From contig OZ024741.1 in NCBI GenBank assembly GCA_964016885.1, positions 117,428,001-117,492,000 of the forward strand: a DNA stretch of 64,000 nt. The letters run 5' to 3'. How positions within the stretch are numbered: position 1 is the stretch's first letter; each line of letters begins with the position of its first letter. Made by a program: the position numbers and the translations under genes. This DNA comes from Eledone cirrhosa. Lineage: Eukaryota. The notes beneath the pieces are model-generated. The model searched no databases and had not been told where the DNA came from. It worked only from the letters and a program-made list of their open reading frames with translations. Of this stretch, positions 51,749-58,659 are shown piece after piece.

Positions 51749-51948
51749 NNNNNNNNNNNNNNNNNNNNNNNNNNNNNNNNNNNNNNNNNNNNNNNNNNNN
51801 NNNNNNNNNNNNNNNNNNNNNNNNNNNNNNNNNNNNNNNNNNNNNNNNNNNNNNNNNNNNNNNNNNNNNNNNNNNNNNNNNNNNNNNNNNNNNNNNNNNN
51901 NNNNNNNNNNNNNNNNNNNNNNNNNNNNNNNNNNNNNNNNNNNNNNNN
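51749..51948. other. Assembly gap (200 N)
   Basis: Run of N. Confidence 1.
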
Positions 51949-52700
51949 ACTGTTTGAGACACAACGTCTAATATAGGACAAAATACAGCCAACTGAATCA
52001 CTGTTTGAGACACAACGTCTAATATAGGACAAAATACAGCTAACTGAATCACTGTTTGAGACACAACGTCTAATATAGGACAAAATACAGCCAACTGAAT
52101 CACTGTTTGAGACACAACGTCTAATATAGGACAAAATACAGCCAACTGAATCACTGTTTGAGACACAACGTCTAATATAGGACAAAATGCAGCCAACTGA
52201 ATCACTGTTTGAGACACAACGTCTAATATAGGACAAAATGCAGCCAACTGAATCACTGTTTGAGACACAACGTCTAATATAGGACAAAATACAGCCAACT
52301 GAATCACTGTTTGAGACACAACGTCTAATATAGGACAAAATACAGCCAACTGAATCACTGTTTGAGACACAACGTCTAATATAGGACAAAATACAGCTAA
52401 CTGAATCACTGTTTGAGACACAACGTCTAATATAGGACAAAATACAGCCAACTGAATCACTGTTTGAGACACAACGTCTAATATAGGACAAAATACAGCC
52501 AACTGAATCACTGTTTGAGACACAACGTCTAATATAGGACAAAATGCAGCCAACTGAATCACTGTTTGAGACACAACGTCTAATATAGGACAAAATGCAG
52601 CCAACTGAATCACTGTTTGAGACACAACGTCTAATATAGGACAAAATGCAGCCAACTGAGACTCTATTTGAGACACAACGTCTAATATAGGACAAAATAC
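51949..52700. repeat. 51-bp tandem satellite, ~14.7 near-identical units, truncated by the gap
   Basis: Unit ACTGTTTGAGACACAACGTCTAATATAGGACAAAATRCAGCYAACTGAATC. Confidence 0.95.
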
Positions 52701-52889
52701 AAATATTTCGATTCATTTCAATGTATTTCGTTGTTCGTTACGTTAGCTTTGTGCTTGAATTATTATTTTTTTCTTTTTTTGCTTTGAGATGCTTTTAATC
52801 ATAGGTCGGACAGACCTATGATCAAAAACATTCCAGTCATGACCATCCGGTCTTTTGTAGAATATATATGATTATATTATCCGTCTTTA

Positions 52890-53615
52890 GGACGGTGGAT
52901 TGGCAGTATCGGTAGAGAGTCGGACAATATGTTTTGCAGCACATAGTTATGTCTCTTTACGTTCTGAGTTCAAATCCCGCTGAGGTTAACTTTGCCTTTC
53001 ATCCTGACGGAATTGATCAAATAAAGTACAAATAACGCACTGGGGTCGATTGAATCGACTTGCCCCTCCCCAAAAGCTGCTGGCCTTGAGCCTAAATATT
53101 ATCCGTCTATTTCTTAAATTGTCATAGTGAGATTTGAGAGACATGTAGCTACTTTTATTTCTTTTTCTTTTTCTTTTTCTTTAGTCAGAGGTGTACCTTA
53201 ATTAAACAGACCTCTGATAAAAGGCATTCCAGTCATGACTATCATGCCTTTGTTTTGATATGATTACATATATTTAAGAAGGTGGAGTGAGATTTAACTG
53301 CTATTTCTAGCTGATATAATAACCACGAAATAACGCCTTCCCTGGCATATTATTGTCTGTATTGTTATAGTTATCATTATTTAGACCCCAAAGGGCAGTG
53401 GATTGGCAGTATCAGTAGAGGGTTGGACGCCATGCTTTGCAGCATAGAGTTACCGTCCTTTATGATCTGAGTTCAAATCCCGCGCAGGTTAACTTTGCCT
53501 TTCGTCCTTAAGGGGTCGGTAAAATAAAGTACCAGTCACGCACTGGGGTCGATTTAATCGACTTTCCCCTCCCACCAAAATTGCTTGCCTTGTGCCTATA
53601 TAAGAAACCATTATT
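52890..53615 (+). mobile_element. Two full-length main-family SINEs (52890-53100, 53395-53615) amid a GCTATTTCTAGC-family repeat
   Basis: A/B boxes, core and tail. The interspersed repeat with CATTCCAGTCATGAC / GCTATTTCTAGC also occurs near 13520, 42310, 47500, 57600 and 58090. Confidence 0.85.
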
Positions 53616-54360: not shown

Positions 54361-54400
<40 letters not shown>

Positions 54401-54404
<4 letters not shown>

Positions 54405-54810
54405 AAAACGTGTTGCGGGTTGCTAATGGGTTACATATGAATAAAGTTAGTCCTTCATCAGTGATCATCCAACCATCATTGGTATTTCATCGCTTTAAAG
54501 ACCATATACCTCCGGTTGGTGCGAGCAACGGCTAAAAAAAGTCGTTGGGACACGTAAATAAAGGGGACACGAGTGTAAACAAACAAAAATGGTGAAGCAA
54601 CAGAAAGTGAGGAAGAAGGAGTCAAGTCCCAAATTTCTATGAATTTAAATTTGGTGAAAATCGTGAACGAGAGAGAATAAAGACCATCAACCTGGTTGGA
54701 ATGTGAGCAAGGAAGGAATTCCGTACAGGTCTAACGGGAGGAAGAAGGGATCTAGTCTGTGATTTCGGTGAACGTAAGTTCTGTGAAATCGTAGACGAGA
54801 GAGAGAGAGA
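54401..54810 (-). mobile_element. Family B long copy with permuted HHR-like motif (54449-54522)
   Basis: Homologous to the 32250-32500 copy; flanked by (TA)n. Confidence 0.75.
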
Positions 54811-56739: not shown

Positions 56740-57367
56740 ATTCTTTCTAAACATTGATACAAGGCCAGTAATTTGGAAAAAAAGGGAAAGTCGATTATGT
56801 CGACCTCAGTATTTTACTGGTATTTTATTTTATCGACCCTGTAAAGATGAAAGGCAAAGCTTAATCTTGGCGAGATTTTAACTCAGAACGTAGAAAGTCG
56901 TAACTAAATATTGCAAAGCATTTTGTCCGACGCGCCAACGATACTATCGTCTCGTTATCTTTAATAATGGTTTCTACTATAAGCACAAGGCCAGTAATTT
57001 TGGGGGGAGAGGAAAGTCGATTAAATCGACCCCCAGTGCGTGACTGGTACTTTATTTTATCGACTTCGTAAGGATGAAAGGCAAAGTTAACCTGCGCGAG
57101 ATTTGAACTCAGAACACAAAGGACCGTACCTCTATACTGCGAAGCAGGGTGTCCGACGCTCTACCGATACTGCCACTCCAATAATAATAATTGTTTCTAC
57201 TTTTGGCACAAGGCCAGAAATTAACCAGTGTATTACTGGTACTTTATTTTATCGACCCCATAAGGATGAAAGGCAAAGTTAACCTCGGCGGGATTTGAAC
57301 TCAGAATGGCAAGGGCCGTAACTCTATGCTTCAAAGCATGGCGTCCGACCCTCTACCGATACTGCCA
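56740..57367 (-). mobile_element. Three tandem main-family SINEs
   Basis: Repeated head, core and tail. Confidence 0.9.
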
Positions 57368-58659
57368 CAGGCGGCCAACAATTTAAAAGTTTCCTTGAAA
57401 AAGCAAAGTACAATCAATTCCTCTATGGCAGTACCAGACTAAGGATTTCATAATAATCAGCAGAAATGAATATAAATATTGGGCATTTACCTGATATTTA
57501 TATATATTCGTAAATAAAATATGAAGGACTACATTATCTAATGTGTTCTGTCCATATTTAATATGCTGGAATGTGATTTATGGTTCATTTCACAGCTATT
57601 TCTAGCGAAATGTGCGACCACTAAAATGACTCTACTATCTTGTTATTTAGTCCGAGTTCATCCAAGTGTTAGAACGTCGGATAGAATGTTTTGCGGTATT
57701 TGTTCCGGCTCTTTGCTCTGAGTTCAAATCACGCCGAGGTCAACTTTGCCTTTCATCCTTTCGGGGTCCATAAAAAGTACCAGTCAAGTACTGAATCGAT
57801 TCTTCCTCTGTATCTCTTTCTCACTTTCTCTCTCACACTCTCAATCCTTCTGTAGAAGAAATCTCTTCTGTTCAGACCTGGGGAGGGATGGGTTCCACCA
57901 GCCTTTAAAATGCTCAAGAAACGCCGTATGCCAATACGGCGCTCCTACGGCTCCATCAGGAGTTACGGGACCAGACCATGCATGAGTGAGCAGATGTATG
58001 GTAAAATGCATTCCAGCCGTGGCCATCTCGACCGTTTTAAACATATGTATTCTGTGCATTTTAAAAACACAATGTGTGATTTGAGAGAGATTTGACTGCT
58101 ATTTTAGCAGGTCAAACACTACGTAGTGGTTTCCTCATTCTTGTTGTTTAACCCTAGCTCAGCCATGGGGGAGCAGACGCATCATAAAATGCATTCCGCC
58201 GTGTGCATCCCGTCTATTTTAAGGATATGCTATACTATATTACCTATTACGTTCTGCCCTTATTTATAACGCTTCGGTGTTATTTGATGGAGACTTCGCT
58301 ACTACTCCTAGCAGGGCGAGCAACCACATGCAGGTTTGTTTATTTTGACTCCCGGCGTAGCGTTTACTACTACGAGCCCTTTTATCAATCTGTGGGTAGT
58401 AAGATACCATAATATCTTCTGATGAATGGTTACTTGAGGGTTGATACATGAGAGAAATGGGTGGAGAAGAAATAAATAGCTCCCTTATCCGTTCACTACG
58501 ACTAAATTATAACTCAACAAACAAAAAACAAGCAACAAACAAAGGCTCCTCATGAACTCCAGTGATTTGAGGAAACATTTATCATCATTATCGTCACCAT
58601 ATCTCAAATAAGATGGTGTTTAAGTGTAAAAATAAATAAATAAATAAAAGTAAATATAA

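What the first reader, a model, noticed from the sequence alone, without database searches (positions are those of the whole stretch)
54449..54522. Permuted (pseudoknotted) hammerhead-like RNA with a built-in kink-turn
Seen on the minus strand: CCAACC-GGA-GGUAU-A^-UGGUC-UUUAAAGCGAU-GAA-AUACC-AAU-GAU-GGUUGG-AU-GAUCA-CUGAUGA-AGGACU. All hammerhead core strands are present: helix III GGUAU/AUACC abuts GAA(A), the NUH triplet is AUA, and helix I UGGUC/GAUCA abuts CUGAUGA. The strand order is cleavage strand, GAAA strand, CUGAUGA strand. Known types I-III are circular permutations of the opposite order, so this one needs a pseudoknot or a dimer. Helix III continues into CCAACC/GGUUGG through a 3-nt bulge and tandem GA/GA, the consensus k-turn. 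Inference: that bend could return the chain to helix I. Weak point: helix II has only one A-U pair followed by non-canonical pairs (AGGACU/AGCGAU). I do not recall this topology being described, but could not search.
Basis: partly seen in the sequence, partly recalled or inferred. Interest (0 to 1): 0.88.

Follow-up and report, generated by a model that had tools for sequence, protein, structure and literature searches.

The report
Split-core permuted hammerhead with kink-turn
This stretch is one of at least 4,500 copies of a parasitic repeat whose RNA is predicted to fold into a self-cutting 'hammerhead' with its parts in a knotted order and a sharp bend, a design that also appears at the tail of published Naiad jumping genes reported to lack the usual hammerhead; cutting itself is untested.

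Summary
The motif is real and repeated: at least 4,500 exact core copies, 0 in the control. It lies in a non-coding, (TA)n-flanked, Penelope-like repeat of about 500-650 nt. Across 75 copies, helices I, III and the k-turn stem pair at 95-97%, with compensatory changes. First, the S-G-C strand order is published (type-SGC, Eckert 2023), though only from metatranscriptomes. Second, helix II does not use the strand after CUGAUGA (38% paired). The core is thus opened just after A9, which falls outside Eckert's six permutations. Read by eye, the same wiring ends 10 of 53 published Naiad consensus sequences from four phyla, a family reported to lack canonical hammerheads. Cleavage is untested. 5' truncations do not pile up at the predicted cut, but one junction lineage ends exactly there. 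This scan reported the same motif before, in this and other genomes. Verdict: new variant of a known ribozyme, likely the missing Naiad ribozyme.

The parts
54398..54806 (-). 5'-truncated copy (about 410 nt) of a non-coding Penelope-like repeat whose tandem period is mostly 496-648 nt; it starts at a (TC)n run and ends in (TA)n after a tail of about 40 nt
54526..54547 (-). conserved upstream hairpin (CAACGAC/GCCGUUG); 91% paired, 3 pairs with compensatory change; role unknown
   Evidence: a similar hairpin precedes the Naiad_Obim/Ovul motif
54521..54524 (-). 5' strand of helix II (UCGC), lying upstream of the motif instead of after CUGAUGA
54511..54519 (-). 5' strand of the outer (NC) stem CCAACC plus G(3n), G(2n), A(1n) of the predicted k-turn
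54505..54510 (-). helix III 5' strand and NUH triplet AUA; predicted scissile bond between 54505 and 54504
   Evidence: junction lineage
54500..54504 (-). helix I strand UGGUC (block S)
   Evidence: 97% paired
54485..54493 (-). helix II 3' strand GCGA, position 11.1 (U) and GAAA (block G)
54469..54484 (-). helix III 3' strand UACC, 3-nt bulge AAU, G(1b), A(2b), U(3b), and outer stem 3' strand GGUUGG
54455..54466 (-). helix I strand GAUCA and core CUGAUGA (block C)
54450..54454 (-). variable nucleotide after A9 followed by a conserved GGA that does not form a Watson-Crick helix II; possible tertiary contact (inferred)
32304..32406 (-). second full copy of the motif in this window (sister subfamily); 3'-half copies lie at 32626-32680 and 40347-40401

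Best explanation
The sequence is the 3' part of a high-copy, non-coding, Penelope-like repeat, likely derived from Naiad elements, whose RNA is predicted to fold as a single-molecule hammerhead that would cut itself between 54505 and 54504. Shown by sequence and covariation: the strand order is II5' - outer stem 5' - III5'/NUH/I - short link - II3'/GAAA/III3' - k-turn-type loop - outer stem 3' - I/CUGAUGA. Helices I, II and III therefore all cross, and the chain leaves the core after A9 instead of entering helix II. Inferred: the k-turn bends the extension of helix III back so that its far end joins the far ends of helices I and II in a second junction. That junction would replace the usual loop I-loop II contact. 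Inferred: cleavage cuts tandem or read-through transcripts into unit-length RNAs (possibly circularised), which a Naiad reverse transcriptase/endonuclease supplied in trans inserts at (TA)n.
For: All core nucleotides are kept in 71-75 of 75 copies, and position 17 is never G (68 A, 6 C, 1 U). The five-helix model is 92.9% paired, against 21-45% for slid controls, with 13 of 28 pairs changed on both sides. Upstream helix II is 85.5% paired, against 38.1% for the downstream alternative. In unbiased copies with perfect helices I and III, 42 of 47 have an upstream helix II and 0 of 47 a downstream one; in divergent families the counts are 25 and 6 of 28. Divergent families keep the fold with different letters. 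The same wiring is read by eye in 10 of 53 Naiad consensus ends, mostly with perfect 4-6 bp upstream helices II closed by G-C. Type-SGC RNAs of the same strand order cleave in vitro (PMC10085705). The repeat shows tandem units, inverted truncated copies, (TA)n flanks and two 3' end classes about 40 nt apart, as described for PLEs and Naiads. One lineage joins the exact predicted 5'-product end, without microhomology, to an internal site: 17 of 30 loci are junctions, against 1 of 30 at a control position.
Against: No cleavage assay and no RNA data. In the window's families the pair next to G12 is poor either way: 3 of 62 cells pair with the upstream strand and 37 of 75 with the nucleotide after A9; these copies may cut slowly or not at all. 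5' truncation points of 98 copies are spread along the unit, with only 2 clear cases within 4 nt of the cut. Sixteen of the 17 junctions are one junction and cluster on a tree, so they may be a single event. Copies are related, so covarying cells count inherited changes; the shuffle tests on numbers of pairs and pair types are not exceeded (55/500 and 156/500). The 5' GA of the k-turn is present in only 13 of 25 divergent copies, and Naiads outside Octopus have a plain bulge there. No intact Naiad ORF linked to the motif was found in this genome.
Confidence: 0.72

Rival explanations
1. An ordinary type-SGC hammerhead in which helix II is made by the strand after CUGAUGA through non-canonical pairs.
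For: GGA after the variable nucleotide is kept in 72-73 of 75 copies. One pair (columns 61/107) is G-C or G-U in 70 of 74. Ostracod Naiad-4_Dst has a contiguous helix II.
Against: Only 38.1% of cells pair, no better than slid controls (39.4% and 38.1%). The upstream strand pairs and covaries.
Confidence: 0.08
2. The motif works as a domain-swapped dimer between tandem units or two transcripts, like minimal PLE hammerheads.
For: Copies occur in tandem. Minimal PLE hammerheads act as dimers (PMC4209133). CUUUAAAG (54500-54493) is self-complementary in the window copy.
Against: Helix III is 5 bp plus a 6-bp outer stem and is predicted to form locally. The palindrome is lost in the UUUAAUG subfamilies. 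The dimer model arises from unstable helices III, which is not the case here.
Confidence: 0.07
3. In this repeat family the fold is a catalytically weak or dead descendant of the Naiad ribozyme. It is kept as a protein-binding signal for the Naiad RT or an L7Ae-family protein such as 15.5K/Snu13.
For: The pair next to G12 is mismatched in most copies. 5' ends do not accumulate at the cut. The k-turn looks like a box C/D protein site (recalled consensus).
Against: C3, G5, G8, G12, A13, A14, U16.1 and NUH are kept across subfamilies and divergent families, while neighbouring positions vary. One junction lineage ends at the exact cut.
Confidence: 0.11
4. A box C/D snoRNA-like sequence, or a chance arrangement of UGAUGA words.
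For: Weak Rfam snR66 match at 54461-54505 (22.8 bits, E 1.6). Several UGAUGA-like words are present.
Against: The score is far below the gathering threshold of 65. There are thousands of retroposed copies. GAAA, NUH and three helices covary.
Confidence: 0.02

Closest known systems
Type-SGC hammerhead ribozymes (HRIMA-1 and variants; Eckert, Friedrich, Weinberg, Weinberg 2023, PMC10085705)
   Same: Order of cleavage strand, GAAA strand, CUGAnGA strand; crossing helices; short link from helix I to helix II; extra nucleotide after A9 followed by GG.
   Different: There, helix II follows CUGAnGA directly (block C is assumed uninterruptible; the descriptor needs CGAAA and helix II after CUGAUGA(U)G), and a separate stem joins helices I and II. 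Here, helix II comes from upstream and the extension of helix III returns through a k-turn-type loop. Their SGC RNAs came from metatranscriptomes, with none in genomes of known organisms; 'kink' and 'k-turn' occur 0 times in their supplement.
Naiad Penelope-like elements (Craig et al. 2021, PMC8557442)
   Same: (TA)n targeting, partial tandems, inverted truncated copies, 30-40 bp tail. The 3' ends of Naiad_Obim and Naiad_Ovul carry the same fold with the k-turn-type loop and a similar upstream hairpin.
   Different: This repeat has no ORF. The paper reports no canonical HHR in Naiads and only flags 'HHR_core' and 'HHR_half_core', without giving this structure in the passages and supplement parts I saw.
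Non-LTR retrozymes and minimal PLE hammerheads (PMC4209133; bioRxiv 10.64898/2026.07.22.740005)
   Same: Non-coding tandem units with one hammerhead per unit, interpreted as non-autonomous PLE derivatives.
   Different: Those carry type I hammerheads, often dimeric. No permuted form, k-turn or pseudoknot is mentioned in the passages searched.
Kink-turn (Kt-7 / box C/D type; consensus recalled, not from a call)
   Same: 3-nt bulge followed by G.A and A.G, between a canonical stem (helix III) and a non-canonical stem.
   Different: It is built into a ribozyme helix. The 3b/3n pair varies (C.A, U.G, U.U, A.A, C.U). The bend and protein binding are untested.

Membership tests
Hammerhead ribozyme | CUGAnGA abutting helix I | tested here: met
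   core positions kept in 71-74 of 75; helix I 97% paired
Hammerhead ribozyme | GAAA abutting helix III, with A15.1-U16.1 | tested here: met
   G12 74, A13 72, A14 75, A15.1 73 of 75; helix III 95.5% paired
Hammerhead ribozyme | NUH triplet between helices III and I | tested here: met
   U16.1 in 74 of 75, position 17 never G; NUH in 44 of 46 parsed copies of the divergent set
Hammerhead ribozyme | a helix II next to G12 | tested here: met
   4-5 bp with an upstream strand, 85.5% paired; 5 bp adjacent to GAAA in other families
Hammerhead ribozyme | Watson-Crick 10.1-11.1 pair (usually G-C) closing helix II | tested here: not met
   3 of 62 with the upstream strand, 37 of 75 with the base after A9; G-C or G-U in other families and in Naiads
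Hammerhead ribozyme | site-specific self-cleavage after NUH | not testable with these tools
   only indirect genomic footprints, mixed
Hammerhead types I-III (Rfam models) | circular strand order / Rfam match | tested here: not met
   order is S-G-C; no hammerhead hit
Type-SGC hammerhead | block order S, G, C with a 0-8 nt link | tested here: met
   sequence; 6-nt link UUUAAA; descriptor
Type-SGC hammerhead | helix II strand contiguous with CUGAnGA (intact block C), and CGAAA | tested here: not met
   38.1% paired; 0 of 47; UGAAA or AGAAA here
Type-SGC hammerhead | interaction stem joining the sequence 5' of helix I to the sequence 3' of helix II | tested here: not met
   GGUUGG pairs and covaries with upstream CCAACC instead (95.1%, 4 of 6 pairs compensatory)
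Kink-turn | 3-nt bulge followed by tandem G.A / A.G between two stems | tested here: met
   1b G 72, 2b A 72, 2n G 72, 1n A 74 of 75, while L1, L3, 3b and 3n vary; 5' GA in only 13 of 25 divergent copies
Kink-turn | sharp bend; L7Ae/15.5K binding | not testable with these tools
   no RNA 3D or binding tool
Non-autonomous Penelope-like element | partial tandems, inverted 5'-truncated copies, about 40-nt tail, microsatellite targets | tested here: met
   features as listed
Naiad clade | linked ORF with N-terminal GIY-YIG and RT | tested here: inconclusive
   none found beside fetched copies; the link rests on the shared fold and hairpin with published Naiad 3' ends
Non-LTR retrozyme | type I hammerhead in each tandem unit | tested here: not met
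   tandem units yes, type I no
Non-LTR retrozyme | circular RNA product | not testable with these tools
   no RNA holder listed

The most novel reading that the evidence does not exclude
An active hammerhead topology outside all six proposed permutations: the core is opened after A9, helix II is completed by an upstream strand, and three crossing helices are caged between two junctions by a bend (a k-turn in Octopus-type elements, a bulge elsewhere). It is the overlooked processing ribozyme of Naiad retroelements from ctenophores to cephalopods, while other Naiad lineages use SGC, CSG or HDV-like ribozymes. The k-turn may place cleavage under control of a host L7Ae-family protein.
Probability: 0.62. 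Interest if true: 0.86.

Novelty: new variant of a known kind. Interest (0 to 1): 0.76.

Why it matters
It would overturn a stated assumption of hammerhead architecture, that CUGAnGA and its helix II strand are contiguous, and move non-circular permutations from rare metatranscriptome RNAs to thousands of copies in animal genomes. It offers a testable answer to why Naiad Penelope-like elements seemed to lack hammerheads: descriptor searches could not see this wiring. A natural k-turn inside a ribozyme helix would also be a compact model (about 75 nt) for protein-assisted ribozyme folding and a new scaffold for RNA switches.

Tried and rejected
Rfam: no hammerhead or other family above threshold. 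Downstream helix II: rejected. An ordinary GUUC-GAA downstream of CUGAUGA occurs in one sister subfamily, but it is followed by U rather than A15.1 and is absent from the window family and other families, so a type I reading was rejected. Pile-up of 5' ends at the cut: not seen. Parent element: the RT ORF next to copies in L017/L068 has a C-terminal GIY-YIG-like part and its own 3' motif (Hydra-like by my reading; no Pfam hit) and is a separate insertion. A 17-nt Naiad_Obim/Ovul pattern found nothing in this genome. Recalled RT motifs and tblastn found no Naiad ORF beside the copies. An Obim-like old copy had no ORF upstream. Expression: no RNA holder listed; four contig sets of one study hold the stretch and show no start or end pile-ups, which contigs cannot show anyway. 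Single-strand folding recovers only the nested hairpin (z -2.08 and -1.15) and cannot score pseudoknots. L022 was dropped from the 76 non-redundant copies before alignment A2 because its 5' part is a rearranged junction.

Full report
Observation. Rfam finds nothing in the window at gathering threshold and no hammerhead model at E<=10 near the site; the only overlapping hit is a weak snR66 match, 22.8 bits against a threshold of 65. The window is microsatellite-rich DNA of a 3.0-Gb genome, animal by my reading of its repeats. The motif is a dispersed repeat: 42 matches from 40 scored candidates in a first DNA search, 2,267 first-look candidates for a sister subfamily, and 4,500 exact matches to a 34-nt degenerate core pattern with 0 for the reversed control. 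The window holds a second full copy at 32304-32406 and two 3' halves.

The element. The window copy spans about 54806-54398 and is the 5'-truncated end of a non-coding unit. In fetched loci the unit occurs in head-to-tail tandems (59 of 67 spacings between 496 and 648 nt), often with an inverted truncated copy beside it, flanked by (TA)n. In 96 unbiased copies, (TA)n began 15-19 nt after the core in 34, 55-74 nt after it in 31, and not within 110 nt in 23. That gives two 3' ends about 40 nt apart. These are the hallmarks listed for Penelope-like elements and Naiads (PMC8557442, section 6). No ORF belongs to the unit. A neighbouring RT in L017/L068 is a separate insertion with its own 3' end.

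Structure. I aligned 75 non-redundant copies from several subfamilies (A2; 125 full copies reduced to 76 at 96.5% identity, one rearranged copy dropped). Paired cells were: helix I 97.0%, helix III 95.5%, outer stem 95.1%, an upstream hairpin 91.2%. The whole model is 92.9% paired with 135 doubly changed cells, against 21-45% when partners are slid. Counts of covarying pairs and pair types do not exceed the shuffles (55/500 and 156/500), and the copies are related, so this is support, not a significance test. Core nucleotides are kept in 71-75 of 75, and the base at the cut is A, C or U, never G. At the k-turn-type loop the four GA positions are kept in 72-74 of 75, while L1, L3, 3b and 3n vary freely.

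The strand after CUGAUGA pairs with the strand before GAAA in only 38.1% of cells, no better than slid controls. The strand before GAAA instead pairs with UCGC at 54524-54521, just 5' of the outer stem: 85.5% over five pairs, with C-G to U-A in 8 copies. Two looser patterns found further families (18 and 165 matches, 0 controls) with different letters and the same fold, for example GACGC/GCGUU and GACAU/GUGUC. With one parser, copies with perfect helices I and III had an upstream helix II in 42 of 47 (unbiased set, 76 parsed) and 25 of 28 (divergent set, 75 parsed), and a downstream one in 0 and 6; the parser allowed 10 registers upstream and 6 downstream. None of 78 viral-contig pattern matches had perfect helices. 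Two results go against the reading. In the window's families the pair next to G12 is mostly a mismatch with the upstream strand (3 of 62 paired) and pairs with the base after A9 in 37 of 75. The 5' GA of the k-turn is present in only 13 of 25 divergent copies.

Comparison with the literature. The S-G-C order is type-SGC of Eckert et al. 2023 (PMC10085705; I read main-text parts 1-6 of 8, supplement parts 1 and 8, and ran a keyword search of the supplement). Those RNAs cleave in vitro and were found in metatranscriptomes, not in genomes of known organisms. The six-permutation scheme assumes that CUGAnGA and its helix II strand are contiguous, and the SGC descriptor demands it. The motif here fails that feature. 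It is best described as the SGC wiring reopened between A9 and helix II.

Naiads. Craig et al. 2021 (PMC8557442; passages, section 6 and supplement passages seen) report that Naiads lack canonical hammerheads and flag only cores and half-cores. I read by eye the last 330-600 nt of 53 Naiad consensus records (the last record's end was not shown; nothing was computed on them). Ten show the split wiring: Bfor, Naiad-3_Chem, Amil, Aacu, Anas, Naiad-2_Movir, Plae, Obim, Ovul and, with one mismatch in helix II, Esco. Only Obim and Ovul have the GA/GA loop; the others have a plain bulge or an inserted hairpin there. Seven spider and ostracod records show S-G-C order without that upstream strand (Naiad-4_Dst with a contiguous helix II; Sdum with a decayed core), and six nematode records show C-S-G order. 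Many of the rest end in what I recall as an HDV-like motif, or show nothing in the part seen. The Obim/Ovul motif is preceded by a hairpin like the one at 54547-54526, with the same loop letters as some subfamilies here. This points to common descent, but I found no intact Naiad in this genome; the paper says cephalopod Naiads survive only as remnants.

Not found in print. Ten searches of the held library returned no paper describing a permuted or k-turn hammerhead in Penelope-like elements. 'type-SGC' occurs only in Eckert 2023. The 2026 retrozyme preprint (part 1 of 5 and passages) and Cervera and de la Pena 2014 (passages) treat type I motifs; other hits were seen as listings only. Subscription papers and bioRxiv supplements were not visible.

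Footprints of cleavage. No RNA data were available. The 5' ends of 98 copies picked by their 3' half are spread over the unit, with 2 clear cases within 4 nt of the cut (three more scored there are (TA)n artefacts). This does not reproduce an earlier scan note from another genome. Copies in which the base after the predicted cut is not T number 120, against 36 for a control position 6 nt on. Among the first 30 loci of each, 17 and 1 are junctions. Sixteen share one junction: the exact predicted 5'-product end joined, without microhomology, to an internal site, in one case as a tandem of 319 nt. This is what ligation or a template jump at a cleaved RNA end would leave. The junction copies cluster on a tree, so it may be one event; I noticed it first in 2 of the 98 copies, so it is suggestive only.

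Mechanism. Shown: strand order, five covarying helices, conserved core, repeat anatomy. Inferred: a monomeric fold in which the bend returns the extension of helix III to the far ends of helices I and II; cleavage at 54505/54504; processing of tandem transcripts for a Naiad enzyme acting in trans at (TA)n. Because the 5' product would stay paired through helices II, III and the outer stem, release may be slow and religation easy (inference). Confidence 0.72; rivals are a weak or dead protein-binding relic (0.11), ordinary SGC (0.08), a dimer (0.07) and chance or snoRNA (0.02).

Earlier scan notes. I reached this reading before consulting them (notes). Seven notes holding all search words and one more report the same motif in this and other genomes, and one notes the second copy in this window. 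They are not independent evidence.

Verdict. A real, high-copy, covarying hammerhead-like RNA with a topology not found in the literature searched; a new variant of a known ribozyme class; interest 0.76, pending a cleavage assay.

Noticed in passing
PMC8557442 supplement, 3' ends of Naiad-1/2/3_Nbra, Hcon, Hpol, Asuum: Clean type-CSG hammerheads with an extra flanking stem, a type known from two metagenomic sequences in Eckert 2023; read by eye.
   Followed up: partly
PMC8557442 supplement, 3' ends of Naiad_Ptep, Smim, Naiad-1 to -4_Dst: S-G-C hammerheads with long insertions (up to about 300 nt) between helix I and GAAA; Ptep and Smim have an interaction stem as in Eckert's SGC.
   Followed up: partly
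PMC8557442 supplement, 3' ends of bivalve, hemichordate, Naiad-1_Chem and Naiad-2_Chem records: A conserved motif that resembles an HDV-like ribozyme (label recalled, not tested) sits where other Naiads have the permuted hammerhead, suggesting ribozyme swapping within the clade.
   Followed up: no
L269-L296 (e.g. L279:1500-1860): A lineage in which the predicted 5' cleavage product is joined to a fixed internal site, giving a ribozyme-less unit of 319 nt, tandem in L279/L280.
   Followed up: yes
L068:1793-3343 (-), L017, L169: [quoted passage not shown]
   Followed up: partly
L028 (downstream of the copy), L104, L269; window 1564 (+) and 47007 (-): Other repeats with hammerhead cores: canonical-order CUGAnGA...GAAA in L028, L104 and L269, and CUGAnGA cores of unchecked context in the window.
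   Followed up: no
L161-L166, L170, L171, L174: A family with the same wiring and a C before GAAA, in which the 5' side of the bend has extra nucleotides after GA, i.e. a non-standard k-turn or another bend.
   Followed up: partly
window 51847-52809: Tandem array of a 51-nt unit, about 14 near-identical copies.
   Followed up: no
window 31499-31887, 52890-53600, 56780-57380: Many copies of an abundant SINE-like repeat of about 196 nt, often in tandem.
   Followed up: no
L006:1750-2340: A 129-nt internal segment of the repeat unit is amplified five times in tandem.
   Followed up: no
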